IMG/VR virus record: IMGVR_UViG_2695420569_000030
Strand: one strand, 5' to 3'
Length of the DNA: 27,360 nucleotides
Source of the DNA: a virus
Taxonomy: Duplodnaviria > Heunggongvirae > Uroviricota > Caudoviricetes
Under the pieces are notes generated by a model, which did no database searches, was not told the DNA's origin, and worked only from the letters and a program-made list of their open reading frames with translations. Shown in pieces: positions 4,233-16,211 of the stretch; positions within the stretch are counted from its first letter, which is position 1; the number at the start of each line of letters is the position of its first letter. The position numbers and the translations under genes are program-made.

Positions 4233-5086
4233 GCACCATCCTGAAATGGGCGGGAAATAAAACCGCCATTATGCCAGAACTGAAAAAATACCTTCCTGCT
4301 GGCCCGCGACTGGTTGAACCTTTCGCGGGTTCCTGTGCTGTGATGATGGAAACGGATTATCCCAGCTATCTGGTTGCGGATATTAATCCTGATTTAATCA
4401 ACCTCTATAAAAAGGTTTCCGCTGATTGTGAATCGTTTATATCTCGCGCCAGAGTTTTATTTGAGATCGCAAACAGGGAGGTGGCTTATTACAACATAAG
4501 GCAGGAGTTTAACTGCTCAACTGAAATTACTGATTTCATGAAAGCGGTATATTTCCTGTATCTTAATCGTCACGGTTACCGTGGTTTATGTCGCTATAAC
4601 AAGAGCGGGCATTTCAACATCCCCTACGGTAATTATAAAAATCCGTATTTCCCTGAAAAAGAACTTCGCACATTTGCAGAAAAAGCCCAGCGAGCAACGT
4701 TTATCTGCGCCAGCTTTGATGAAACGCTGGCGATGTTGAAGGCGGGAGATGTGGTGTATTGCGATCCGCCGTATGACGGTACGTTTTCCGGCTATCACAC
4801 TGATGGTTTCACTGAAGATGACCAGTATCACCTGGCATCCGTTCTTGAACATCGGTCATCAGAAGGACATCCAGTCATTGTTTCTAACAGTGACACATCC
4901 CTGATCCGTTCGCTGTATCGCAATTTTACTCACCACTATATCAAGGTAAAACGCAGCATCGGTGTGGCAGCTGGCGAGGGTAAATCAGCAACAGAAATCA
5001 TTGCTGTTTCCGGGCCGCGCTGCTGGATGGGATTTGATTATTCGCGTGGCGTGGATAGTTCTGCCGTGTACGGAGTACGTGCATGA
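4229..5086 (+). CDS. dam: DNA adenine methyltransferase (Dam-like N6-adenine MTase)
   Basis: In-frame ATG at 4229 after GGAGG. SAM-binding motif (FAGSCAV) and catalytic DPPY motif (VYCDPPYDG). ATGA overlaps with both neighbours. Confidence 0.85.
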
Positions 5087-7497
5087 GTCATGCCGATATG
5101 AACAACTGCTGCGGCTTTAACGAGGCTGCTGCAGCATTCTCATGGAACAGCCCGAAAAAGGCCATTAACCCTTATCTGGACCCGGCGGAAGTTGCGCCGG
5201 TTTCTACGCTTTCAAACCTGATCACTCTGTACGCTGCCGATAACGAGCAGGAACAGTTGCGCCGCGAGGCACTGAGTGATCAGGTCTGGGAGCGTTATTT
5301 CTTTAATGAATCACGTGATCCTGTCCAGCGCGAAATGGAGCAGGATAAGCTCATTAGCCGGGCAAAGCTGGCGCATGAGCAGCAGCGTTTTAATTCAGAC
5401 ATGGTCATTCTGGCGGACGTCAACGCCCAGCCTTCCCATATCAGCAAGCCGCTGATGCAACGTATTGAATACTTCAGCAGCCTGGGCAAGCCAAAGGCTT
5501 ATTCCCGCTATTTACGTGAGACGATTAAGCCATGTCTGGAACGACTGGAGCATGTACGCGACAGTCAGCTATCTGCATCTTTTCGCTTTATGGCAAGCCA
5601 TGAAGGGCTGGACGGCCTGCTGATCCTGCCTGAAATGAGTCAGGATCAGGTGAAACGCCTGTCCACCCTGGTAGCTGCGCATATGAGTATGTGCCTTGAT
5701 GCAGCTTGTGGTGATTTGTATGCCACCGATGACGTTAAGCCAGAAGAAATCCGCAAGACATGGGAAAAGGTGGCAGCGGAAACCCTGCGTCTGGATGTCA
5801 TCCCACCTGCGTTTGAGCAACTCCGTCGGAAAAGAAACCGCCGTAAACCCGTGCCCTATGAACTCATTCCGGGTTCGTTGGCGCGTATGTTGTGTGCCGA
5901 CTGGTGGTATCGGAAATTATGGAAGATGCGTTGTGAATGGCGGGAAGAGCAGTTGCGTGCTGTCTGCCTGGTCAGCAAAAAAGCATCCCCCTATGTCAGC
6001 TATGAAGCCGTGATGCATAAACGTGAGCAGCGCCGTAAGTCGCTGGAGTTTTTCCGTTCTCATGAACTGGTGAACGAAGACGGCGACACGCTGGATATGG
6101 AAGATGTGGTAAACGCCAGCAGCAGCAACCCGGCGCATCGCCGCAATGAGATGATGGCCTGTGTTAAAGGTCTGGAGCTTATCGCGGAAATGCGCAGTGA
6201 CTGCGCCGTTTTCTACACTATCACCTGTCCGTCGCGTTTCCATTCCACGCTCAATAACGGCAGACCCAACCCGACCTGGACAAACTCGACGGTAAGACAA
6301 AGCAGCGACTATCTGGTCGGCATGTTTGCTGCATTTCGTAAGGCGATGCACAAAGCCGGATTGCGCTGGTATGGCGTGCGGGTGGCTGAGCCGCATCATG
6401 ACGGTACAGTTCACTGGCACCTGTTGTGTTTTATGCGCAAAAAAGACCGCCGCGCCATCACTGCATTACTGCGTAAGTTTGCCATCCGTGAAGACCGCGA
6501 GGAGCTGGGCAATAACACTGGGCCGCGCTTTAAGTCTGAGTTGATTAACCCGCGCAAAGGAACGCCGACAAGCTACATCGCGAAATATATCAGTAAGAAC
6601 ATTGACGGGCGTGGTCTGGCTGGCGAGATCAGCAAGGAAACGGGTAAATCTCTGCGTGATAACGCTGAATACGTTAATGTCTGGGCGTCTCTGCATCGTG
6701 TTCAGCAATTCCGCTTCTTTGGCATTCCGGGGCGTCAGGCTTACCGTGAACTGCGATTGCTGGCTGGTCAGGCGGCAAGGCAACAGGGTGACAAAAAAGC
6801 AGGTGCTCCGGTACTGGATAACCCGCGCCTTGATGCCATTCTGGCTGCTGCTGATGCTGGCTGTTTTGCCACCTACATTATGAAGCAGGGCGGCGTGTTG
6901 GTTCCCCGCAAATATCACTTGATCAGAACCGCTTATGAAATCAACGAAGAGCCGACAGCCTATGGCGATCACGGCATTCGTATTTATGGCATCTGGTCAC
7001 CCATTGCAGAGGGCAAGATCTGCACTCATGCAGTGAAGTGGAAAATGGTTCGTAAGGCCGTTGACGTTCAGGAGGCGGCAGCCGACCAGGGCGCTTGCGC
7101 CCCTTGGACTCGTGGCAATAACTGTCCCCTTGCTGAAAATTTGTACCAACAAGGGAAAGACAAATCAGCTGATGGAGATACCAGAACTGATATCACCCGT
7201 ATGGATGACAAGGAGTTGCACGATTACCTGCACAGTATGAGCAAAAAAGAGCGCCGGGAACTGGCAGCAAGGTTACGCCTGGTGAAACCGAAACGGCGTA
7301 AAGACTACAAACAGCGAATTACAGATCATCAGCGACAGCAGCTCGTGTATGAACTGAAGTCCAGGGGATTTGATGGCAGCGAGAAAGAGGTCGATTTACT
7401 CCTTCGCGGCGGCAGTATTCCGTCAGGAGCAGGCCTGCGTATCTTCTATCGGAACCAGCGTTTGCAGGAAGATGATAAGTGGCGGAACCTGTATTAA
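5083..7497 (+). CDS. A: Replication initiation endonuclease (P2 gpA-type rolling-circle initiator)
   Basis: 804 aa, the size class of P2 A. HUH-type metal-binding motif (HWHLLCF) and downstream tyrosines. Located after the early regulators, as in P2/186. Confidence 0.9.
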
Positions 7498-7589
7498 TTA
7501 CGCGGGTTAACAATTCGTGCTCTTAATAATACCAGGCATTTCTGGCTGATGAACGTAAAAAAACGTTTTACATCAGTAAGATTATTATA

Positions 7590-7609
7590 TACTGTAAATA
7601 TAAACAGTG
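7590..7609 (+). promoter_or_regulatory. LexA operator (SOS box) upstream of the tum-like operon
   Basis: TACTGTAAATATAAACAGTG is a CTG-N10-CAG motif with an AT-rich spacer, close to the LexA consensus, about 40 bp upstream of the ATG at 7650. A second degenerate box (GTG-N10-CAG) abuts it. Confidence 0.6.
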
Positions 7610-7649
7610 GTTATGTATACAGTATCGCTTTGGTGTCATAGGAGGAAAG

Positions 7650-7838
7650 ATGCAGGACTATTTTTTGGAGTCTTTGAAGCTCCAGCGCATTGATTTTTTT
7701 CTTAAGCTTGTAGCGGCTAGTGAGTGTAGTGATGAAGAGAAGGGGCTGGCTCTGCAGTGGGTTTCTGAATTGACTGATGAACTCATGGCAAAAATCAGAA
7801 CCCACGAATACAACCGCTCAATGGATGTCATCAGTTGA
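7650..7838 (+). CDS. Small protein, possible N-terminal part of a Tum-like antirepressor
   Basis: 62-aa ORF with strong RBS (GGAGGAAAG), directly downstream of the LexA box and upstream of the DinI-like ORF. Confidence 0.5.
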   Translation: MQDYFLESLKLQRIDFFLKLVAASECSDEEKGLALQWVSELTDELMAKIRTHEYNRSMDVIS

Positions 7839-7848
7839 GGTGACTTTT

Positions 7849-8082
7849 ATGCGCATTGAAATAATGATCGATAAAGAGCAGAAGATTAGCCAGTCTACCC
7901 TGGACGCCCTTGAATCCGAGCTTTACCGCAATCTGCGCCCCCTGTATCCCAAAACGGTAATTCGTATCCGCAAAGGTAGCTCTAACGGTGTGGAACTGAC
8001 CGGACTGCAACTGGATGAAGAAAGAAAACAAGTGATGAAAATTATGCAGAAAGTGTGGGAAGACGACAGCTGGCTGCATTAA
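7849..8082 (+). CDS. DinI-family protein
   Basis: 77 aa (MRIEIMIDK...DALESEL...VWEDDSWL) that aligns by eye along its whole length with E. coli DinI (MRIEVTIAK...DALAGEL...TWESADDW). RBS GAGGTG. Confidence 0.8.
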   Translation: MRIEIMIDKEQKISQSTLDALESELYRNLRPLYPKTVIRIRKGSSNGVELTGLQLDEERKQVMKIMQKVWEDDSWLH

Positions 8083-8193
8083 GAAACGTTGCCTCCAGGA
8101 GGATTCATTCTGATGGGGGCTAGTTTGGGCAACGAGTGAAACGAGGCGTAAGGTGGGCGGGCATTTTGATAAGTGATCGTCCGCTTTGTGCTA

Positions 8194-8213
8194 GAAGCGG
8201 TCGTTACCGCTTC
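8194..8213. terminator. Stem-loop between convergent genes (possible terminator)
   Basis: GAAGCGG-tcgtta-CCGCTTC, a perfect 7-bp stem. An upstream CCGCTT copy could form an alternative pairing. The U-tract is weak. Confidence 0.25.
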
Positions 8214-8226
8214 AGCACTTTGTTAA

Positions 8227-10086
8227 TTAGTGAGGGCTGGTTATTACGTAGTCGCTCTGGTCATCCTCTCCCAGCCTCTCAGGTATTAAATCGTTGAAGG
8301 AAATAGTATTACTCTTAGGTTTTTCTTCAATTGGAAGTTCAGCTACCCTTAATTTGAGCGGCATGGGGCAGACGATACCACTAAAAATACAGGTTCCTGT
8401 AGATAGCGTTGGAATCGACTCTTCAGTCAGTCGATCTATATATGATACTGATTTTTCAATTGCGTACAGATCATTCTGATTAATAAGGCGATGAATAAAA
8501 TAATTGTGTGCTTGGGATATGATTGTCGACGATATATCATTAGGGCGTTGACTGGAAATTGTGATAAAAACTCCAAATTTTCTCCCCTCCTTTATGATTT
8601 CCTCAAAAGTTTCCAGACGATAATCTCTCCAACTTTCCGTTTCCCGAAAAGAAGTATTAGACAAAATATTGTGGGCTTCATCTATAATGATGTGCAGTGT
8701 AGATTTCTCTGTAGACATTTTCTTCATATTGTAAGCCCACTTGGCTATCAAAAGAGGAAGCGTTTTTTTCATGGTTATATTAACCATATTTAGATTCACA
8801 ACCGTGAAATTATGTTCACCCCAAAAGTCAGACTGTCCGGAAGTATCAAATATTTTGGCTATATCTTTACGGTTAGCACTCATTCTATTTATAACTGGTG
8901 AAATATGTTCAGGGTTAGACTTGTTAGATAAATATTCCTGTATTAACTGTAAGTACATAAAGTCCAACAGTTCTTCAATCATATCAGTTTTAAATAAAAA
9001 ATTGCTTGCAAGACTGAATAGATAGGAGCGCTCAGTATCAGCTTCTGTATTGAAAATACTACCACCCCTCAATTTCCATTTATATGCAGTTGAATGATAC
9101 TCAAGATCAGATATAAGTTCTGGGTCATCTTTGAAAATTGGGCTAAGAAACTGATTTATAGTATCGCATTTGGGTTTGTCGCTACTAAAGAGATTTTGTC
9201 TGACTTTTTTCTTCAGGATATTGCGCATAAACTCAAGAGGATTATCAGCAGTCATCACTTTCTTGCGAAACTCAAGAACTCTCTTCAGGAAAGGTTTCTG
9301 TGTTTTGTCTGTTGCATCGGTTAGAACTGAGAGCATATCATGCTCAAGTAGAACCTCTCTGGGTAGAGGAAGTTTGTCACCATTTGCATGGTGCGTGTTG
9401 AGATTATAAACCGTCTTCTCGTCAGTAATACAGCGTGGGGCAGTATATTCTCCATTAAAGTCGAATAGAATAAATTTGCATCTTTCACTAAAGTGGTTGC
9501 CGAGAATATGTTTAACTTGGGCAATACCTGCTTTGTATAGCGCGGCTAGGGTATTTGACTTTCCGCTGCCTGTATTACCGAAAATGGCAATGTGGGAATT
9601 AATAAGACCATTGATTGGTAGTGCAATTTCAATATCTTCAAGATCTGTACGAGTAAACCTCATTACAGTTTCGTCTGCATTAGCTATCTGATGAACCGTT
9701 TGTATCATCTCTTCAGTTACCACGAAGACTTCATTGCCGATGAGAGGTAGTTCACGCGAACCACCAATGAAGCAACCAGTACGATCAATGTAACCCGTAA
9801 GAGTAGAGGTCAGGTATCGCCGATATCGCCAGGCATCACTGCCGCTCCCAGCGAGATGTTTTTCCTCAATGATTCGTTCCGCTTCAACCTTGCCGATCAG
9901 GCTCATGAAACCTTTTTTGATCTCAATGAAGCTACCCACTGATACATTTCTTAGAACTTTTCCCTGATAAAACAAGTCACTGAGATTTTTGTTTTTATCG
10001 ACCAAAATTGTCACAGCGCGTCCAGAAACCTCACAGACTTCGCCTATACGGAGCACCGCTTCCTCTTCAGTAAAATGCCTGCTCAT
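8227..10086 (-). CDS. HerA-like P-loop ATPase (partner of SIR2)
   Basis: Walker A GNTGSGKSNT and Walker B HIIIDEAH. Start taken at the ATG that forms an ATGA overlap with the SIR2 stop; the track ORF extends 7 codons further. Confidence 0.8.
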   Translation of the reverse strand: MSRHFTEEEAVLRIGEVCEVSGRAVTILVDKNKNLSDLFYQGKVLRNVSVGSFIEIKKGFMSLIGKVEAERIIEEKHLAGSGSDAWRYRRYLTSTLTGYIDRTGCFIGGSRELPLIGNEVFVVTEEMIQTVHQIANADETVMRFTRTDLEDIEIALPINGLINSHIAIFGNTGSGKSNTLAALYKAGIAQVKHILGNHFSERCKFILFDFNGEYTAPRCITDEKTVYNLNTHHANGDKLPLPREVLLEHDMLSVLTDATDKTQKPFLKRVLEFRKKVMTADNPLEFMRNILKKKVRQNLFSSDKPKCDTINQFLSPIFKDDPELISDLEYHSTAYKWKLRGGSIFNTEADTERSYLFSLASNFLFKTDMIEELLDFMYLQLIQEYLSNKSNPEHISPVINRMSANRKDIAKIFDTSGQSDFWGEHNFTVVNLNMVNITMKKTLPLLIAKWAYNMKKMSTEKSTLHIIIDEAHNILSNTSFRETESWRDYRLETFEEIIKEGRKFGVFITISSQRPNDISSTIISQAHNYFIHRLINQNDLYAIEKSVSYIDRLTEESIPTLSTGTCIFSGIVCPMPLKLRVAELPIEEKPKSNTISFNDLIPERLGEDDQSDYVITSPH

Positions 10087-11126
10087 CTCGAGCCTCCCAG
10101 ATAGCACGTGATAATGTTATTCATTACCGGAAAATCAACATTTCTTCCCGGCCGATAAATAATCTCTACGTTTGAGTAATCCCGAAATTTCTCCATAAAG
10201 CCGTTAACACTGGCCTCATCGAAAGCAAAGATCAGTAGCTTCAGGGTGGCGTTGCGCAGGGCTTTTTTAGTTATCGTTTCAATGTGCTCATCAGCAAACG
10301 AGAACCCAAAGACAATTAGTAAAGTTGCTTCTTTATCAAGCTCGTTGGAATAGGTTCTCAGTAAATCATAATAAACGTTCTGTAGTAGAGTCTCTTTAAA
10401 CTTCTCCTTACGTGGAAGAATAAGTGCATGAGCAAGTACCCATCCTTTCATTTCGGCTAGGGTGGGAAAGTCAAGCGGCTTAATATCTGCAATACGATAA
10501 ATGATTTTCCCTTTAGAATGCTGCCAAGAGAGCGAACCATGAAGTTTTATAAGGTTAACAGTAGGAAGCTCAACTTTATAATTATACAGATTTCCGGTTG
10601 CACTTACAGAATGATTAAAGCTACCCGCATCAAATTCCGCATCTCCCAAAATACTTGCTCTTCTATTGAATCCATCATTAAAAAGAATATTGTTATTACG
10701 TGTGGCAGCTTCTTCGATGAATAAATCATAATTAGTTGTAAAAACGTTAATACGCCTCGGAAGTAGGCCAGTTCGGCGGCGGGTCAGTATCTTTTCCAGT
10801 GAAGACATAAATGCATCATAATTTGCACGGGTACATTCCAAATCGGTGATCACCTGAGGTGCGAAGGGGGTGCCGTAGCCGCGCTTCAACATGCATTCAT
10901 GAGGTAGCCAAACATCTGACAAAAAGTCAGCTGCCATCCTTAAGTATTCATCTTCCTGTTCATCATTAATAAGCTGCTGAAGATCCGTTTCGATTGTCCC
11001 CAGTACTTTAATCGCTGGGAGGGATGCACCTGATCCGATGAGAAAGTTAATGTTAGCTGACTGAAATATCCGCTCTAAGTAGTCTCGGTCACTATCGTTA
11101 CCGTAGTATGCGCGCTTGACTGCCAT
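10083..11126 (-). CDS. SIR2-like domain protein (defence-type, predicted NADase)
   Basis: Motifs GSGAS, VFTTNYDLFIEEA and IKLHGS, characteristic of defence-associated SIR2 domains. ATG at 11126 with AGGA RBS; the track start at 11141 is a TTG. Confidence 0.75.
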   Translation of the reverse strand: MAVKRAYYGNDSDRDYLERIFQSANINFLIGSGASLPAIKVLGTIETDLQQLINDEQEDEYLRMAADFLSDVWLPHECMLKRGYGTPFAPQVITDLECTRANYDAFMSSLEKILTRRRTGLLPRRINVFTTNYDLFIEEAATRNNNILFNDGFNRRASILGDAEFDAGSFNHSVSATGNLYNYKVELPTVNLIKLHGSLSWQHSKGKIIYRIADIKPLDFPTLAEMKGWVLAHALILPRKEKFKETLLQNVYYDLLRTYSNELDKEATLLIVFGFSFADEHIETITKKALRNATLKLLIFAFDEASVNGFMEKFRDYSNVEIIYRPGRNVDFPVMNNIITCYLGGSR

Positions 11127-11550
11127 CTTATCCTTCCACAAAACATTGGATTAGTCTGTAATTTATTTAATCTTAACGCCGAGCTCAATACTTTAACATC
11201 ACTTCTTCTGGCGATTGCTATGAGCCCTTCTTGATAAAAAGTTCGATCGGGAAACTGATCCTTTATGCCACAAGTTTTCTAGCTATCCTCAAAAAATTGG
11301 TGTTAAAACTGTGCCAACAAAGTTGCAAGGTTCGCTTCTCGCTCACAGCGAACTTTCATCTTTGTAAACCCGTATGATTCGCTTTTCAGCAGTCATTCAG
11401 ATACGGATTTACGCTTCCCTTGGCAGCGCATGACTATGACGCATGAGATCGCATGATCGTTTGAGGATCGTTTTTGCTGAAGTCAGCCAGAACTGGCGTG
11501 CTTTTGCTTATGTCATGCAGGTGCATGAAAACCACTACATAAAGCGGGCA

Positions 11551-11569
11551 GGCGTGGCGGGGATACGAG
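11551..11569. other. Candidate cos (cohesive-end) site
   Basis: GGCGTGGCGGGGA followed by GCGCGCGCT resembles the 19-nt cohesive ends of P2/186 as I recall them (GGCG[A/T]GGCGGGGAAAGCA...). It lies in the intergenic region between the two cargo operons. Recalled from memory, not verified. Confidence 0.3.
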
Positions 11570-11721
11570 CGCGCGCTAAGTCATATAAGAGTTATATATT
11601 GATTTGATTGCTGGACATGCATACAGTATCGCTCTATCATCTAATAAATCTTAGAGTATTTGACAATGTTTGGATAAAATGGAACCTAACTTATTCATAA
11701 TCCGCTAAACAGGGATGTCAG

Positions 11722-12636
11722 ATGCCATACCAATTGGTAGAGCTTAGCCCCGTAGCTAACGATCTTGAACAGTTAGGAACCAAAGAGAAGTTTTGGTTCT
11801 ATTTCTCCGATGACACTGTAAATTTGCAGTTGTTTAAGTACTCTAGGCCAGGTACTGGCGAGCATTGGTCTGAAAAGTGTGCTGCTGAGTTATGTCATTT
11901 GCTTAACATTCCACATGCTAGCTATGATTTGGCGCGATACAATGGTCGATTCGGTGTGGTGACTCAGAATATCATTCCATCTGGTTTCCGGATGGTAATG
12001 GGAAATGAAGTGCTTCACAGTTCGACATTCGATTATCCTGGGTCTTTACAAGCCGGGGAAAAGCCGGTAAGGGTCAGAGAACACACTGTCACAAGGGTAT
12101 TGGGTTGTTTAGATAGGGAATCTATCAAGCCTCCTCCGAGTGTATATGATCTAACCGGGCTAAATGCAGCAGATGTATTTTGTGGATATTTGATGCTCGA
12201 TGCACTTGTGAGTAATCAAGATCGCCATCATGAAAATTGGGCGATCATGCTTAACAATGAAACTGGTGAGCAGTTTTTGTGTCCAACATACGATCATGCC
12301 GCTAGTTTAGGAAGGGAGATGTTAGATGATGAGCGTAACGAACGGCTTAATACTAAAGATAAAAATCGACAAATCCCATGTTTTGTAAGAAAAGCTCGCT
12401 CTGAGCTATTCAAAGCAAAAACTGATAAAAAGCCCTTGCTGACCGTTGAAGCATTTCAACATGCAGTTGAAGGGAGAGTTGCCGCTCGCGACCATTGGTT
12501 AGGTAAGTTGAGCGTTTTAACAGAAGATTCCATTACAGATGTGTTTAACCAAGTGCCTTCATCGTGTATATCCGACAGTGCACGTAGATTTGCAACGTTA
12601 ATGGTAATGGAAAATCGCAGAAGGTTACTAGAATGA
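11722..12636 (+). CDS. HipA-family serine/threonine kinase (short, HipT-like core)
   Basis: Catalytic-loop motif SNQDRHHENW (HipA D-x-H-x-x-N), downstream CPTYDHA (HipA activation-region PFYD) and a Gly-rich-loop-like GTKEKF. 304 aa, shorter than canonical HipA. Confidence 0.75.
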   Translation: MPYQLVELSPVANDLEQLGTKEKFWFYFSDDTVNLQLFKYSRPGTGEHWSEKCAAELCHLLNIPHASYDLARYNGRFGVVTQNIIPSGFRMVMGNEVLHSSTFDYPGSLQAGEKPVRVREHTVTRVLGCLDRESIKPPPSVYDLTGLNAADVFCGYLMLDALVSNQDRHHENWAIMLNNETGEQFLCPTYDHAASLGREMLDDERNERLNTKDKNRQIPCFVRKARSELFKAKTDKKPLLTVEAFQHAVEGRVAARDHWLGKLSVLTEDSITDVFNQVPSSCISDSARRFATLMVMENRRRLLE

Positions 12637-13373
12637 CTAATACAAACTCCGTTTACGTCGCATGGCAGGCACCAGATACCAGAGACTGGCATGTTGTTGG
12701 TAACTTGCAAGAGCGCAAATCGGGGTATGTTTTCAGGTATACCAAAGGTGCTCTCAAATCTACTAAATTTACAAAGTTTAGCGGCATGAGTGATGTTCGT
12801 GAAACTTATGTTTCGGAAGAATTGTTTCCTCTTTTTAAAAATCGCCTTTTATCACCGAGACGTCCAGAGTATCCGAGTTTCATTAAATGGCTTGGATTTG
12901 AAGAAGATAAGGTAAATCCTATCGATATTCTTGCTCGCTCGGGAGGCTTACGAAGCACTGATCAGCTGCAGATTTTCAAAAAAATTGATGTTGATTCTGA
13001 TGGTAACTTTGAGCATTTTTTCTTCTTACATGGACTTGGTTACTTAAATAGCTTAGCTAATGCTCGTGTATCTGAATTGAAACCGGGGCAAATTTTGCGT
13101 CTTTGCTTGGATCTTCAAAATGAATACGATGGGGATGCTGTTGTCGTTCGTGCAGATAAACCAGCTGAAATCGTTGGTTACTGCCCTAGGTATTTAAGTA
13201 ATGATATCAAGAAGATGTTATTGGATGATCCAAAATCAATCACTTTAACGGTCGAAAAGATTAGCGATGATGCTCCTCATAACTATCGGTTATTATGTAA
13301 ATTATCAGGAGTACTAAGCCAAGCCTGTCAATCGACGCTGATTCCTCAGGATGAGTTTGAACCTATTGAGTAA
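12633..13373 (+). CDS. HipA-N-terminal-like (HipS-like) domain fused to a HIRAN-like domain
   Basis: Start overlaps the kinase stop (ATGA). The N-terminal region (W...VGNL...F.Y, then LFPLFKNRLLSPRRP...IDILARSGGLRS) parallels the HipA N-subdomain 1. The C-terminal region (LHGLGY...LRLCLDLQNEYDGDAVVVRA...IVGYCPRYLS) matches the HIRAN signature. Confidence 0.6.
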   Translation: MTNTNSVYVAWQAPDTRDWHVVGNLQERKSGYVFRYTKGALKSTKFTKFSGMSDVRETYVSEELFPLFKNRLLSPRRPEYPSFIKWLGFEEDKVNPIDILARSGGLRSTDQLQIFKKIDVDSDGNFEHFFFLHGLGYLNSLANARVSELKPGQILRLCLDLQNEYDGDAVVVRADKPAEIVGYCPRYLSNDIKKMLLDDPKSITLTVEKISDDAPHNYRLLCKLSGVLSQACQSTLIPQDEFEPIE

Positions 13374-13379
13374 ATGAAG

Positions 13380-13406
13380 AAAAGCCACCAAACGGTGGCT
13401 TTTCTT
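13380..13406. terminator. Bidirectional rho-independent terminator
   Basis: AAAAGCCACC-aaac-GGTGGCTTTT, a perfect GC-rich stem with an A-tract on one side and a T-tract on the other, between the convergent stops at 13373 and 13408. Confidence 0.55.
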
Positions 13407-13407
13407 A

Positions 13408-14445
13408 TTATGGGACTATATCTAGCGAGTAGGTATTAAACTGTATCGCCTCCTTGCCAAGCCAATCATTCATCTCCTGTAATCGCTTTTGTAGTGGCAT
13501 TAGCTCATTTCGGACGAATACACGGCTTGCCTTCTCCACATCCCCAAACCCCCCAACATTATTCGGCATAATCCCCATCATTTGCGGCGGTACACGATGC
13601 GCCGCCATCATGTCGTCCCGGCTTACGTTCTTGATGTTCAGAAACTCATCCTTTGCCGCCACTTCTGACAGCGGGATGATCTGAAGCCCGTCCTTTTTGC
13701 CGTTAGGCGAGTACATAAACAGGTTGCGGAAGTTGCCCGGACCTTTGGCGCTTTTCATCGCGTTGCGGAGGTTGTTCACATCCTCCTGGTTCTGAGCGGC
13801 ATCGGTCATGTACATTATGAATCCTGCATGGCTGCCATTAATATAATATTTGCGTCGGAACAGCGTGGCGGACTCGTTGAGCAGGGCTGACGGAATGGCA
13901 GAAAGATAGCCGGGCAGGCCGTAGATCTCCTGGTTGATATCGGGTTCCATCAGATGAAAGATGCTGCCTTTCGTGAACTGATACGGCTGGGTTGTCATAC
14001 CGTATTGCACAAACCAGTAGGTATCCAGGTCTAACCCGCGTCGGGTGTATTTTGCCAGCGCAGGCTCAAGGGCGATAATTTCACCGAACCGGTTCGTGCG
14101 TTTCTCCAGGTAGGCGTTACCAAATACCAGATAGTCCTGCACAAAACGTGAAAAAGCCTGCTGGCTGAGCAGCGGGTGAGGGATGTAGGTGCTGGTCAGA
14201 ATGTTGCATTTCACCGCAATCGGTGAGCTATGATGCACGGCGGCGCGGAAGGTTCGCGCCAGTCCGTCGAAACTCACTGGTGGCTCATACCAGCGGTCCA
14301 TCTGTACGCATTCCACATAGTCCAGTAATTCGCGGCGGTCCAGAACAGGAACGGGATCGCCGAAGCTGAATGCTTCGGCTGAAGTCTGGCTTTTATGCTG
14401 GATCTGATTCATCGCCGCTGCGCGGTTTTTCTTACGCTTTCCCAT
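13408..14445 (-). CDS. Q: Portal protein (P2 gpQ-like)
   Basis: 345 aa from the ATG at 14445, which overlaps the P stop by one nt. Size and position (downstream of the large terminase, next to cos) match P2 Q. Confidence 0.9.
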   Translation of the reverse strand: MGKRKKNRAAAMNQIQHKSQTSAEAFSFGDPVPVLDRRELLDYVECVQMDRWYEPPVSFDGLARTFRAAVHHSSPIAVKCNILTSTYIPHPLLSQQAFSRFVQDYLVFGNAYLEKRTNRFGEIIALEPALAKYTRRGLDLDTYWFVQYGMTTQPYQFTKGSIFHLMEPDINQEIYGLPGYLSAIPSALLNESATLFRRKYYINGSHAGFIMYMTDAAQNQEDVNNLRNAMKSAKGPGNFRNLFMYSPNGKKDGLQIIPLSEVAAKDEFLNIKNVSRDDMMAAHRVPPQMMGIMPNNVGGFGDVEKASRVFVRNELMPLQKRLQEMNDWLGKEAIQFNTYSLDIVP

Positions 14446-16211
14446 CAAAAAATCTCCACAATATTACTGGTATTGGCGGACTCGCCTTGCAGTGGTTCGT
14501 TAAACAGTGCGTGCATTGTTGCCCAGGCCAGATCGGCGTGGCTGGCTTCTTCGCTGCGGCTGGCTTCATAGGTCGGGCGGTTGCCACTGGCGGTGGTGGC
14601 GCGACGGATTGCCATAAATGACTGCGCTATGTCGGTGTGTCCGGCGTCAAACTCCAGACGGCGGTGGCTGATAATGTCGTAGGCCTTGAGTACCAGAGCG
14701 TTTTTAACGTTGGGGTTGTAGACAAACTCCCGGACGGCAGGAAAGAACGCTTTCACGTTCTCATAAACCCCGTGACCGACGCCTGTCGAGTCAATGCCGA
14801 TATAGGTCACGTTGTACTGCTCGGTCAGTTTTTTGATGGCGTCAGCCTGGGCGCGGAAGTCCATTCCGCGCCACTGGTGACGCTCAAGAATGCGGAACTT
14901 ACCGCCCGGCACGGCTGGCGGTGCCACCACCACGCACCCGGCGCTGTCGCCGTTTTGCGTACCTTTTGCCGGGTCATAACCGATCCACACTTCGCGCCAG
15001 CCAAACGGGCGCAGCGCCAGTGCATGAAAGTCGGTCCAGACTTCCCAGCTGTCCACCATGCACCCCTGCAGCTCGCTGAGCGGGAACACGGACGCGAGAT
15101 CGTCCACGAACTCACACATCAGCAGGTTCTGGTATTCATCCGGGCTGTATTCCATGCGTAACTGGTCGAGGTCGAACAAGTTGCAGCCGCCGCGCACCGC
15201 ATCTTCCACAGTGACTATCTGGCGGTACTGCCCGTCTGCGCACAGCAGGCCGGGGGCCAGATTGCTGTGGGACAGGTCGATGTCCACCTTGTCGGCTTTG
15301 TTGCGTCCACGGTTGAACAGCGCACCGGACCAGAACGGATAAGCACTGTGGGTCAGGCTGGATGGCGTGGAAAAATAGGTTTGTCGCCATTTTTTGTGAA
15401 TAGCCATACCGGAAGCCACTTTGCGCAGCTCCTGGAATTTCGGTATCCAGAAATATTCATCCAGATACAGGTTACCGTGATAACTCTGGGCTGTGCGGGC
15501 ATTGGTGCCGAGGAAGTAAAGCGTGGCCCCGTTAGGAAGCACCATCGGATCGCCTTTCAGCTCCACCTCCACTTCTTTGGCGAAGTCGATGATGTACTGC
15601 TTAAAGACGTGGGCCTGTGCCTTACTGGCGGAAAGGAAAATCTGGTTACGTCCGGTCAGCAGGGCGTCAATCAGGGCTTCACGGGCAAAGTAAAAGGTCG
15701 CGCCGATCTGGCGTGACTTCAGCAGGTTGCGGATGCGGTTGGTTTTTCCGGCTTCCCACCAGTGGCGCTGGTAGTTGAACATGGAGGAGTGGAAGATTTC
15801 TTCCAGCTTCTCAATTTGTTCATCGGTGAAAACGTTCTTTTCCGGCTGACGGCGCGGGCCTTTGTTGCGGTTGGCGACGTTAGGGTTTAAGTCGGCTTCG
15901 TTACCGCCATTGTTAAACTTGCCGATGCGCGCGTGGCGCTCCGACTGGCGCGCCAGCAGGTCAATTTCTTTGAAATCTTTCCCTTCTTTGTGCTCCTTCA
16001 TAATGAGCTGGCAGTAGCGTGCGGCGGTGGTGAGCTGCATCTGATCCAGCGGCCCATAGTCACCCCACTTGTCGCGTTTTTTCCAGCTGTGAACGGTTGC
16101 AACTTTCTCGCCCAGCATTTCAGCAATGCGGGCTACGCGGTATCCCTGAAAGTACAGCAGCATGGCCTGCCGACGGGGATCGAGATCTGCGGGTGTCAGT
16201 GTGGTGTTCAT
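14445..16211 (-). CDS. P: Terminase large (ATPase) subunit (P2 gpP-like)
   Basis: 588 aa, divergent from the scaffold gene as in the P2 P-Q/O-N-M-L arrangement. Confidence 0.9.
   Translation of the reverse strand: MNTTLTPADLDPRRQAMLLYFQGYRVARIAEMLGEKVATVHSWKKRDKWGDYGPLDQMQLTTAARYCQLIMKEHKEGKDFKEIDLLARQSERHARIGKFNNGGNEADLNPNVANRNKGPRRQPEKNVFTDEQIEKLEEIFHSSMFNYQRHWWEAGKTNRIRNLLKSRQIGATFYFAREALIDALLTGRNQIFLSASKAQAHVFKQYIIDFAKEVEVELKGDPMVLPNGATLYFLGTNARTAQSYHGNLYLDEYFWIPKFQELRKVASGMAIHKKWRQTYFSTPSSLTHSAYPFWSGALFNRGRNKADKVDIDLSHSNLAPGLLCADGQYRQIVTVEDAVRGGCNLFDLDQLRMEYSPDEYQNLLMCEFVDDLASVFPLSELQGCMVDSWEVWTDFHALALRPFGWREVWIGYDPAKGTQNGDSAGCVVVAPPAVPGGKFRILERHQWRGMDFRAQADAIKKLTEQYNVTYIGIDSTGVGHGVYENVKAFFPAVREFVYNPNVKNALVLKAYDIISHRRLEFDAGHTDIAQSFMAIRRATTASGNRPTYEASRSEEASHADLAWATMHALFNEPLQGESANTSNIVEIF

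What the first reader, a model, noticed from the sequence alone, without database searches (positions are those of the whole stretch)
8227..11126. SIR2-like + HerA-like ATPase operon (recognised anti-phage system type) carried as prophage cargo
Seen in sequence: the upstream gene has SIR2-type motifs (VFTTNYD, KLHGS) and the downstream gene has Walker A GNTGSGKS and Walker B IIIDEAH. The two are joined by an ATGA stop/start overlap and are transcribed opposite to the flanking phage genes. Established knowledge: SIR2+HerA pairs are an experimentally supported defence system type acting through NAD+ depletion. The locus is visibly AT-richer than the phage backbone, consistent with horizontal acquisition.
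Basis: partly seen in the sequence, partly recalled or inferred. Interest (0 to 1): 0.6.

Follow-up and report, generated by a model that had tools for sequence, protein, structure and literature searches.

The report
SIR2-HerA defence operon in P2-like prophage
This is a real, intact two-gene SIR2-HerA anti-phage system carried as swappable cargo next to the packaging (cos) site of a P2-like E. coli prophage; both the kind of system and this exact gene pair at this spot are already catalogued, so the finding is correct but ordinary.

Summary
A 347-aa SIR2 gene (11126..10083, minus strand) and a 619-aa HerA ATPase gene (10086..8227, minus strand) overlap by ATGA. All four quoted motifs are present. 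The operon is 40% GC against 53-56% in the phage backbone.

PADLOC SIR2 and HerA profiles match end to end (E 6e-211 and 7e-267). Pfam SIR2_2 and DUF87/HerA pass their gathering scores. The SIR2 model matches the SIR2 subunits of solved SIR2-HerA complexes first. HerA lies directly downstream of SIR2 in 79 of 80 related loci from many phyla, and both genes are under purifying selection.

The operon sits in the known gpA-gpQ hotspot of a P2-like prophage, in the slot where P2 carries old and tin, about 425 bp from a cos-like site. About 1282 of 5426 complete E. coli genomes share parts of the surrounding 6 kb. Only 18 hold the operon, 13 of them at this site. The same cassette also occurs in chromosomal islands and on plasmids.

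The exact proteins appear in Table S5 of Rousset et al. 2022. This is a compact, divergent subtype, not the characterised Nezha type. I found no experimental test of it, so NAD+ depletion is inferred. Verdict: already known; low interest.

The parts
10083..11126 (-). SIR2-family gene, 347 aa. It carries the Rossmann GSGAS motif (G31-S35) and a predicted catalytic dyad N132 (TTNYD) / H196 (KLHGS). The protein is identical to RefSeq WP_028985770.
   Evidence: Searches give the ORF, start codon and motifs. Pfam SIR2_2 E 1.4e-12. PADLOC SIR2 PDLC04080 E 6.3e-211 over the full length. N132/H196 align with the S. aureus SaSir2 residues N226 and H287 (H287 mutation abolished NADase and N226 is proposed from conservation, PMC11514289). 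Both residues are invariant in 20 homologues down to 43% identity. AF2 model pLDDT 83.5; the top 38 PDB fold hits are all SIR2 subunits of SIR2-HerA complexes. Identity to WP_028985770.
8227..10086 (-). HerA-family ATPase gene, 619 aa. It has an N-terminal barrel region, Walker A G170-S177 (K176), Walker B I466-H472 (D469/E470) and an SQRP motif at aa 512. It differs by 1-2 residues from WP_029364119 and WP_086482717.
   Evidence: Pfam DUF87/HerA central domain E 3.7e-19. PADLOC HerA PDLC04097 E 6.7e-267. NCBIfam HerA_antiphage aligns aa 17-598 to profile 3-564 of 566 (E 5e-40, below the equivalog cutoff). The six best PDB sequence hits are HerA-family ATPase chains, three of them from SIR2-HerA entries (8wiv, 8yho, 8j4u; E 3e-28 to 2e-18). 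Residue differences.
10083..10086 (-). ATGA stop/start overlap that couples SIR2 and HerA translation.
   Evidence: Sequence read directly. GGGAGG at 10098-10093 serves as the HerA ribosome-binding site.
11127..11357 (-). 5' untranslated/promoter region that travels with the cassette. The promoter itself is not resolved. The only weak sigma-70-like candidate is -35 TTGAGC (11188-11183), 17 nt spacer, -10 TAAATT (11165-11160).
   Evidence: Homology with the non-phage copies of the cassette (E. coli island L003, Citrobacter L005, Enterobacter L006) runs to 11338-11357. The consensus scan found no strong minus-strand promoter here. The soft scan found one 8/12 match.
8189..8218 (.). Stable hairpin just downstream of the HerA stop codon, between the convergent DinI-like and HerA genes. 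It lies inside the mobile cassette. It has no U-tract on the HerA transcript, so it is not a canonical intrinsic terminator.
   Evidence: RNA fold -21.2 kcal/mol, z = -5.6 against shuffles. The left boundary of the cassette is at 8187 in L003 and L005 and 8179 in L006.
8187..11357 (-). Extent of the mobile SIR2-HerA cassette, meaning the DNA shared between prophage and non-prophage contexts.
   Evidence: blastn of the window against L003 (8187-11357, 90.9%), L005 (8187-11338, 96.8%) and L006 (8179-11345, 91.4%).
11551..11569 (+). cos-like cohesive-end sequence GGCGTGGCGGGGATACGAG, given as context. It separates the SIR2-HerA slot (right end of the packaged genome, where P2 has old-tin) from the hipIN slot (left end, before gpQ).
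   Evidence: Alignment with the annotated P2 cosR/cosL junction gives 46/59 identity, and 14/19 within the 19-nt cohesive end. The block 11425-11584 is 87-93% conserved in 91 P2-like phage records. It is the segment shared by all hotspot variants. Function is inferred.

Best explanation
The locus is an intact two-gene SIR2-HerA anti-phage system of a compact, divergent subtype (347-aa SIR2, 619-aa HerA). It is a self-contained cassette of about 3.2 kb inserted in the cos-proximal gpA-gpQ hotspot of a P2-like E. coli prophage. It occupies the position and orientation that the old-tin exclusion genes have in P2.

The likely mechanism is inferred from characterised relatives. The two translationally coupled proteins assemble into a large complex of a HerA hexamer with a SIR2 ring. 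The complex stays quiescent in the lysogen. On infection by another phage, SIR2 is switched on through its N132/H196 site and hydrolyses NAD+, possibly alongside ATP- and DNA-directed activities of HerA. This stops the infected cell and aborts the infection, which protects the lysogen population and the resident prophage.

Shown here: family identity, conserved catalytic residues, strict gene pairing, purifying selection, and variable-cargo status. Inferred: complex formation, NADase activity, the trigger, and the abortive-infection outcome.
For: Family identity:
- Pfam SIR2_2 and DUF87/HerA both pass their gathering scores.
- PADLOC SIR2 (E 6e-211) and HerA (E 7e-267) profiles match over the full length.
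- The SIR2 chains matched in the PDB by sequence are all from SIR2-HerA entries (8yhx, 8j4u, 8w9l). The best HerA matches are 8wiv, 8yho and 9c1m.
- The AF2 model (pLDDT 83.5) has 38 top fold hits that are all SIR2 subunits of SIR2-HerA complexes. DSR2 and ThsA follow about six orders of magnitude weaker.
- N132/H196 align with SaSir2 N226/H287 (PMC11514289) and are invariant across 20 homologues.

Gene pairing and selection:
- HerA lies immediately downstream on the same strand in 79 of 80 related loci from Proteobacteria, Acidobacteriota, Bacteroidota, Firmicutes, Planctomycetota and others. The one exception ends 94 bp after SIR2.
- dN/dS is 0.09-0.30 for both genes.

Cargo status:
- The operon is 40% GC against 53-56% in the backbone.
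- 18 of 5426 complete E. coli genomes hold the operon, while about 1282 share parts of the surrounding 6 kb.
- Alternative cargo sits at the same site in sister prophages.
- The same cassette occurs in a chromosomal island with restriction-modification and IS genes, at a non-phage chromosomal site, and relatives occur on 142 plasmid records.

Literature:
- The gpA-gpQ hotspot is described, and these very proteins are listed, in Rousset 2022 (PMC9122126).
- SIR2-HerA depletes NAD+ and gives an abortive-infection phenotype (Garb et al. preprint).
- Complex assembly activates the NADase (PMC11514289, PMC11472057).
Against: No experiment on this subtype was found.

Identity to characterised systems is low. 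Structure-based identity of SIR2 is 17-21%. HerA shares 27% over 135 aa with Nezha HerA. The NCBIfam equivalog cutoffs are missed by a wide margin (99.8 against 500 bits; 137.5 against 800 bits).

The SIR2 is 34-81 residues shorter than the solved ones. It lacks about 90 N-terminal residues relative to SaSir2, and about 35 at each end relative to Nezha Sir2. In those proteins, a C-terminal helix (Nezha) and an extra loop and helix bundle (SaSir2) take part in oligomer assembly (PMC11514289); whether they fall in the regions missing here was not checked.

Zhang et al. 2026 found that only 4 of 8 E. coli Sir2-HerA clusters gave robust defence in their assay, and that one active type works through a HerA nickase plus an ATP checkpoint (PMC13434337). 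I could not determine which cluster this one belongs to.

No convincing promoter was found upstream of SIR2.
Confidence: 0.85

Rival explanations
1. It is a functional SIR2-HerA-type defence, but the main antiviral action is not NAD+ depletion alone. HerA-driven DNA nicking or cleavage and ATP consumption would gate or replace the NADase, as reported for the type III E. coli Sir2-HerA. The trigger and the assembly would differ from Nezha.
For: Zhang et al. [quoted passage not shown] This pair is as far from Nezha as those subtypes are from it. The FD-x-x-GEY motif after Walker A, which contains D209, is present. It may correspond to the nickase residue D218 of type III, but I could not align the two.
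Against: The SIR2 catalytic dyad and the Rossmann motif are strictly conserved across the whole clade, which argues that the NADase chemistry is under selection. The catalytic Asn of type III Sir2 is N238 against N132 here, so this is not the type III architecture.
Confidence: 0.15
2. It is a genuine SIR2-HerA homologue that gives no measurable protection. It could be silent or poorly expressed cargo, or belong to one of the E. coli clusters that showed no robust activity against 110 phages.
For: Four of the eight E. coli clusters tested by Zhang et al. 2026 were not reported as active. No strong promoter was found. The operon is rare, in 18 of 5426 genomes.
Against: Both ORFs are intact in all 18 E. 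coli copies and in 79 of 80 loci from other species. dN/dS is 0.09-0.30. All catalytic motifs are conserved. The cassette spreads between prophages, islands and plasmids, which is hard to explain without a selectable function.
Confidence: 0.08
3. The pair serves the prophage's own life cycle rather than defence. For example, HerA could act as a DNA translocase in replication or packaging, and SIR2 could regulate host or phage proteins by deacylation or ADP-ribosylation.
For: It lies next to cos and to the replication gene gpA. HerA-family ATPases act on DNA ends in archaeal repair (NCBIfam hits).
Against: It is absent from about 99% of prophages that share the flanks. It occurs without any P2 genes in all 80 loci from other species and on plasmids. 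Its GC content is foreign to the backbone. There is no hit to the canonical deacetylase family Pfam SIR2 PF02146, only to SIR2_2. The fold is closest to defence SIR2s.
Confidence: 0.02

Closest known systems
S. aureus SaSir2-HerA (PDB 8YHX/8YHO; PMC11514289)
   Same: It is the best SIR2 sequence match in the PDB (E 3.3e-21), and its HerA matches at E 4.8e-26. Its chains are among the top fold hits. SaSir2 N226 and H287 align with N132/H196 here. It is also a two-gene SIR2-plus-HerA system. Like SaSir2, this SIR2 has only a short C-terminal tail after the aligned core.
   Different: Identity is about 20% in the structural alignment. The SIR2 here is 81 residues shorter and lacks about 90 N-terminal residues relative to SaSir2. 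SaSir2 has an extra loop and helix bundle reported to be needed for complex formation; I did not check whether it falls in the missing region. The host is Gram-positive. SaHerA reportedly lacks ATPase activity, whereas the Walker motifs here are canonical.
E. coli Sir2-HerA / Nezha (Gao et al. 2020 system; PDB 8J4U, 8SU9, 8SXX)
   Same: It has the same domain pair and the same host species. It is also carried in the P2 gpA-gpQ hotspot: Rousset Table S5B system 14 ('SIR2 | DUF87', tabulated figure 188), whose HerA is Nezha HerA (E 1e-202 to 8j4u_M). NAD+ depletion and abortive infection are established for SIR2-HerA systems of this kind.
   Different: SIR2 matches at only E 1.5e-11 over the core. 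HerA is 27% identical over 135 aa. The NCBIfam equivalog thresholds are not met. Nezha Sir2 is 415 aa with a C-terminal helix used for dodecamer formation, against 347 aa here.
E. coli Sir2-HerA types I-III (Zhang et al. 2026, PMC13434337)
   Same: That study found eight divergent E. coli Sir2-HerA clusters, three of them newly shown to defend by an abortive-infection-like outcome. This operon is very probably one of those eight clusters.
   Different: The cluster assignment could not be made because no accessions or supplement are held. It is not type III, whose catalytic Asn is N238 against N132 here.
P2 old-tin exclusion genes
   Same: They occupy the same slot, between gpA with its small accessory genes and cosR. 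They have the same leftward orientation, with transcription starting on the cos side. They are likewise non-essential lysogenic-conversion cargo that excludes other phages.
   Different: The proteins are unrelated: Old is an OLD-family ATPase-nuclease, and Tin blocks growth of T-even phages.

Membership tests
SIR2-HerA anti-phage systems (broad family) | A SIR2_2-type sirtuin-fold protein with an NAD-binding Rossmann motif and a catalytic Asn/His dyad | tested here: met
   Pfam PF13289 E 1.4e-12, above gathering. G31/G33/A34/S35, N132 and H196 are invariant in 20 homologues. The dyad aligns with SaSir2 N226/H287.
SIR2-HerA anti-phage systems (broad family) | A HerA/FtsK-type ATPase (DUF87) with Walker A and B motifs and an N-terminal barrel | tested here: met
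   Pfam PF01935 E 3.7e-19. PADLOC HerA E 6.7e-267. NCBIfam HerA_antiphage aligns over the full length. The N-terminal aa 16-267 align with 8wiv residues 9-247.
SIR2-HerA anti-phage systems (broad family) | The two genes are adjacent, co-directional, and conserved as a pair across taxa | tested here: met
   ATGA overlap in the window. HerA lies directly downstream in 79 of 80 related loci, with SIR2 identity from 96% down to 30%; the one exception is a contig end.
SIR2-HerA anti-phage systems (broad family) | The SIR2 fold is closest to the SIR2 subunits of solved SIR2-HerA complexes rather than to ThsA, DSR or deacetylase sirtuins | tested here: met
   Foldseek against the PDB: ranks 1-38 are all 8yhx, 8su9/8sub/8suw/8uae, 8j4u, 8sxx, 8wld/8woc or 8w9l (E 8e-16 to 2e-9; TM normalised to the query 0.50-0.67). 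DSR2 and ThsA begin at E 1e-6.
SIR2-HerA anti-phage systems (broad family) | Location in defence islands or hotspots of mobile elements | tested here: met
   P2 gpA-gpQ hotspot. A chromosomal island with a type I restriction gene fragment, a restriction endonuclease and IS elements. Plasmids.
SIR2-HerA anti-phage systems (broad family) | A SIR2:HerA supramolecular complex, HerA-dependent NADase activation, and NAD+ depletion with protection during infection | not testable with these tools
   This needs cloning, phage challenge, NAD+ measurement and biochemistry. No published test of these proteins was found.
Nezha (Gao 2020 E. coli SIR2+HerA) in the strict sense | Equivalog-level similarity to the Nezha Sir2 and HerA proteins | tested here: not met
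   NCBIfam SIR2_antiphage scores 99.8 bits against a cutoff of 500. HerA_antiphage scores 137.5 against 800. HerA is 27% identical over 135 aa. The PADLOC models listed as PDLC02186/02185 score only 97.8 and 142.9 bits, against 698 and 885 bits for the subfamily models.
Variable cargo of the P2-like gpA-gpQ hotspot (Rousset et al. 2022) | It lies between gpA and gpQ near cos, and it is present in only some otherwise collinear prophages | tested here: met
   gpA is at 5083-7497 and the portal gene at 13408-14445. A cos-like site is at 11551-11569. 13 genomes have it at this site, while about 1282 share parts of the surrounding 6 kb. Alternative contents are seen in L002, L085 and L086. WP_028985770 and WP_029364119 are listed in Table S5.
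DUF4297-HerA and other HerA-partnered systems | The HerA partner is a DUF4297/Cap4-type nuclease | tested here: not met
   The partner is SIR2_2, and no DUF4297 hit was found.
Canonical sirtuin deacylases (CobB/Sir2, Pfam PF02146) | A match to PF02146 | tested here: not met
   Only PF13289 and a sub-threshold DUF4917 match were found. Presence of the Zn-ribbon module was not examined.

The most novel reading that the evidence does not exclude
The compact clade (347-aa SIR2 plus about 610-aa HerA) is widespread in Enterobacterales and reaches many other phyla. It could be a mechanistically distinct Sir2-HerA subtype, with its own assembly mode, because it lacks the N- and C-terminal extensions present in the solved Sir2 proteins. 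It could also have its own phage trigger, and it may not yet have been characterised. In this prophage it sits across cos from a possibly SOS-controlled hipIN kinase module, so the two cos-flanking slots might form a layered, co-packaged defence pair.
Probability: 0.25. Interest if true: 0.4.

Novelty: already known. Interest (0 to 1): 0.2.

Why it matters
It adds little that is new. It is a clean example of how P2-like prophages carry interchangeable anti-phage cassettes beside cos, and of how one cassette moves between prophages, chromosomal islands and plasmids.

Its modest value is practical. The pair is a well-delimited, apparently untested compact subtype of Sir2-HerA. It could be cloned from 8187-11357 to ask how far the assembly and gating rules worked out for Nezha, SaSir2-HerA and type III extend. 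The lysogen also offers a natural setting to test whether two neighbouring modules, SIR2-HerA and hipIN, act together.

Tried and rejected
- DNA and protein searches of 50,697 deposited phage genomes found no close homologue of the operon. 'Phage cargo' is therefore documented only in prophages, not in isolated virions.
- My first search for the P2 cos 19-mer, allowing 3 mismatches, found nothing. The cos-like site was recovered only by aligning the annotated P2 end junction.
- Consensus scans gave no convincing promoter for the operon. The scan reported no intrinsic terminator after HerA, only a hairpin without a U-tract.
- I could not assign the operon to one of the eight clusters or to types I-III of Zhang et al. 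2026. No supplement is held and the main text gives no accessions. Only type III could be excluded, from its residue numbering.
- A literature search for the RefSeq protein accessions returned nothing.
- P2 gpA, portal, DinI and HipI/HipN proteins were searched against the 80 loci from other species and gave no hits. The P2 location is therefore not the ancestral context.
- The repeat search found no flanking direct or inverted repeats that would suggest a transposon-like or integron-like insertion.
- The Rfam scan of 7400-13600 gave only a sub-threshold chance hit, which overlies the Q-side terminator hairpin.
Full report
**Observation**

The SIR2 gene runs from ATG 11126 to TGA 10083 on the minus strand (347 aa) and is preceded by GGAAGGA. 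The HerA gene runs from ATG 10086 to TAA 8227 (619 aa) and is preceded by GGGAGG. The two share the ATGA overlap at 10086-10083. The longer TTG and GTG starts listed mechanically are not used in the RefSeq annotation of identical loci.

All four quoted motifs are present: VFTTNYD (N132), KLHGS (H196), Walker A GNTGSGKS (K176) and Walker B IIIDEAH (D469/E470).

The operon is 40.1% GC. gpA is 52.7% and the morphogenesis genes are 55-56%. GC3 is 0.36-0.40 for the operon, against 0.57 for gpA and 0.64 for the portal gene. The low-GC stretch covers all of 7498-13407, so it includes the neighbouring genes as well as this operon.

**Family assignment**

- Pfam gives SIR2_2 (E 1.4e-12) and DUF87/'Helicase HerA central domain' (E 3.7e-19), both above their gathering scores.
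- PADLOC profiles match end to end: SIR2 PDLC04080 at E 6.3e-211 (profile 1-347 of 347) and HerA PDLC04097 at E 6.7e-267 (3-616 of 618). A subfamily-specific defence model for this clade therefore already exists.
- Against solved structures, the best SIR2 match is S. aureus SaSir2 (8yhx, E 3.3e-21). E. coli Nezha Sir2 (8j4u, E 1.5e-11) and Paenibacillus Sir2 (8w9l) follow. The best HerA matches are 8wiv, 8yho and 9c1m, at E 3e-28 to 1e-25.
- In the phmmer alignment, N132 and H196 line up with SaSir2 N226 and H287. H287 was shown by mutation to be required for NADase, and N226 is proposed from conservation (PMC11514289).
- In an alignment of 20 homologues down to 43% identity, the Rossmann motif (G31, G33, A34, S35), TTNYD, H196-G-S and an FGFSFxDxH motif are invariant.
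- An AlphaFold2 model built on that alignment (pLDDT 83.5, pTM 0.86) was searched against the PDB. It returned only SIR2 subunits of SIR2-HerA complexes in ranks 1-38 (E 8e-16 to 2e-9; TM 0.50-0.67). DSR2 and ThsA start at E 1e-6.

**Gene pairing and selection**

A scan of one genome per species found 386 relatives of the SIR2. I examined the best 80 loci. In 79 of them a HerA homologue lies immediately downstream on the same strand. The only exception is a contig that ends 94 bp after SIR2. These loci come from Enterobacterales, other Gammaproteobacteria, Alphaproteobacteria, Acidobacteriota, Bacteroidota, Planctomycetota, Bdellovibrionota, Elusimicrobia, Spirochaetes and Firmicutes.

Pairwise Nei-Gojobori estimates against copies that are 91-97% identical in DNA (L003, L005, L006) give dN/dS of 0.09-0.30 for both genes. 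Both genes are intact in every E. coli copy. This is a functional, co-evolving pair.

**Context**

The window is a P2-like prophage. It contains an integrase, CI, CII, a Dam-like methylase, gpA (5083-7497), a small ORF (7650-7838), a DinI-like gene (7849-8082), the operon, a hipA-like kinase and a HIRAN protein (11722-13373), then the portal gpQ (13408-14445, minus strand), the terminase and the late genes. Rousset et al. 2022 defined the gpA-gpQ interval as a defence hotspot adjacent to cos (PMC9122126).

Aligning the annotated end junction of P2 with the window places a cos-like site at 11551-11569 (GGCGTGGCGGGGATACGAG). Identity is 14/19 in the cohesive end and 46/59 with its flanks. The surrounding block 11425-11584 is 87-93% conserved in 91 P2-like phage records from Klebsiella, Yersinia, Salmonella, Escherichia and others.

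The 'hotspot' here is therefore two slots on either side of cos.
- SIR2-HerA fills the right-arm slot. This is the position and leftward orientation that old and tin have in P2.
- hipIN fills the left-arm slot, between cos and gpQ.

**Variable cargo**

The 6-kb interval 7500-13500 matches 1282 of 5426 complete E. coli genomes, mostly through its conserved flanks. Only 3 genomes carry the whole arrangement. The operon alone is found in 18 genomes.
- 13 copies are at least 99% identical and all lie at this prophage site.
- 3 copies are 91.5% identical. The one examined (L003) lies in a chromosomal island with a type I restriction gene fragment, IS1 and IS3 elements and a restriction endonuclease.
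- 2 copies are 75% identical. The one examined (L004) lies among metabolic genes.

Sister prophages have other contents at the site: hipIN alone, an ASCH protein plus a restriction endonuclease plus hipIN, or SIR2-HerA followed by different genes on the far side of cos.

blastn delimits the mobile cassette at 8187 to about 11345-11357. That extent includes about 220 bp upstream of SIR2 and a stable hairpin downstream of HerA (8189-8218; -21.2 kcal/mol; z = -5.6).

None of the 80 loci from other species has P2 gpA or portal genes within 8 kb. Relatives of the SIR2 occur on 142 plasmid records at 80% coverage or more, from Pantoea, Klebsiella, Yersinia and Atlantibacter. No deposited phage genome holds a close relative.

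**Mechanism**

This part is inference from relatives.
- SIR2-HerA systems deplete NAD+ during infection and show an abortive-infection phenotype (Garb et al. preprint).
- Sir2 alone is auto-inhibited. [quoted passage not shown] - For one E. coli subtype, type III, phage SSB and Gp5.9 are the triggers. A HerA nickase together with an ATP checkpoint gates the NADase.

The present pair has every catalytic motif these activities need, so the same general logic is the most likely one. The trigger, the stoichiometry and the relative weight of NADase against DNA-directed activities are unknown.

**Comparison and membership**

The pair meets every testable criterion of the broad SIR2-HerA family. It is not Nezha in the strict sense.
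- The NCBIfam equivalog models score 99.8 of 500 bits and 137.5 of 800 bits.
- HerA is 27% identical to Nezha HerA over 135 aa.
- The SIR2 is 347 aa, against 415 (Nezha), 428 (S. aureus) and 381 (Paenibacillus). It lacks about 90 N-terminal residues relative to SaSir2 and about 35 at each end relative to Nezha Sir2.
- It is not the type III architecture, whose catalytic Asn is N238.
- Zhang et al. 2026 report eight E. coli Sir2-HerA clusters, four of which gave robust defence. This operon is almost certainly one of the eight, but I could not tell which.

**Novelty**

SIR2+HerA as cargo of P2 and P4 hotspots is published. Table S5B of Rousset et al. lists 'SIR2 | DUF87' (tabulated figure 188), annotated as the Gao et al. 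system, and its HerA is Nezha HerA. The exact proteins of this window, WP_028985770 with WP_029364119, appear in Table S5A of the same paper at several P2 hotspot loci. The window's SIR2 is identical to WP_028985770, and its HerA differs from the RefSeq proteins by 1-2 residues. PADLOC already carries models for the subfamily.

The finding is therefore correct but already known. What remains open is only the experimental behaviour of this compact subtype.

**Seen in passing**

These items are listed separately in the report.
- cos splits the hotspot into two cargo slots.
- The adjacent module is of the hipIN type (HipI-like kinase plus HipS-HIRAN; PADLOC candidate PDC-M03; Gerdes et al. 2021).
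- LexA-box-like sequences lie upstream of orf62-dinI and of hipI.
- A bidirectional terminator hairpin lies between hipN and gpQ.

Noticed in passing
window 11722-13373 (+): A second two-gene module lies directly across cos from SIR2-HerA. It consists of a small HipA-like kinase (304 aa, DRHHEN motif; Pfam HipA_C E 3.6e-4, below gathering) and a 246-aa protein with a C-terminal HIRAN domain (E 1.1e-13). The two are joined by an ATGA overlap at 12633-12636. PADLOC calls them candidate system PDC-M03A/B (E 2e-122 and 3e-93). The gene order and domains fit the hipIN type (HipI kinase plus HipS-HIRAN putative antitoxin) of Gerdes et al. 2021 (PMC8262856). That paper proposed that the HIRAN domain senses DNA ends, and I found no experimental test. 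Among the prophages listed it is carried more often than SIR2-HerA. Only 3 of 5426 genomes carry both modules together.
   Followed up: partly
window 11425-11584 (cos-like 19-mer at 11551-11569): A cos-like site and its conserved surroundings lie inside the gpA-gpQ 'hotspot' and split it into two independent cargo slots. The right genome end holds SIR2-HerA, where P2 has old-tin. The left genome end holds hipIN, where P2 has only 187 bp before Q. This conserved block is the segment shared by all hotspot variants I compared, so it probably serves as the recombination anchor for cassette swapping.
   Followed up: partly
window 7590-7609 and 11609-11628: There are two LexA-box-like sequences. TACTGTAAATATAAACAGTG has 3 mismatches to the consensus, with none expected by chance, and lies upstream of the orf62/DinI-like pair. 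TGCTGGACATGCATACAGTA has the CTG-N10-CAG form and 15/20 matches. It overlaps the promoter-like TGGACA-17-TATCAT upstream of hipI. The two regions also share a 22-nt direct repeat (7608-7629 and 11612-11633, 86% identical). This suggests SOS control of the DinI-like gene and possibly of hipIN. It is untested.
   Followed up: partly
window 13380-13405: The hairpin AAAAGCCACC-AAAC-GGTGGCTTTT fills the 34-bp gap between the hipN stop and the gpQ stop. It looks like a bidirectional rho-independent terminator, the counterpart of tQ in P2. It also explains the sub-threshold Rfam hit to BSnc120 (32 bits against a gathering score of 114), which I take to be chance.
   Followed up: no
window 7650-8082 (+): A 62-aa ORF with no family match is followed by a DinI-like gene (Pfam DinI E 1.3e-22; RefSeq start at 7849). 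Together they form a conserved small unit between gpA and the cargo slot. In Rousset Table S5A the same two proteins (WP_001154431/WP_001154434 and WP_001217575) recur in many hotspot arrangements. They look like semi-core accessory genes rather than swappable cargo.
   Followed up: no
L002 (NZ_CP116046) locus 11899-14835: In one strain that carries the same SIR2-HerA cassette, the prophage is degraded. The portal gene is truncated and is followed directly by the tape-measure gene, so the head genes and most other late genes are missing. The defence operon nevertheless remains intact. This shows the cargo can outlive its prophage.
   Followed up: no
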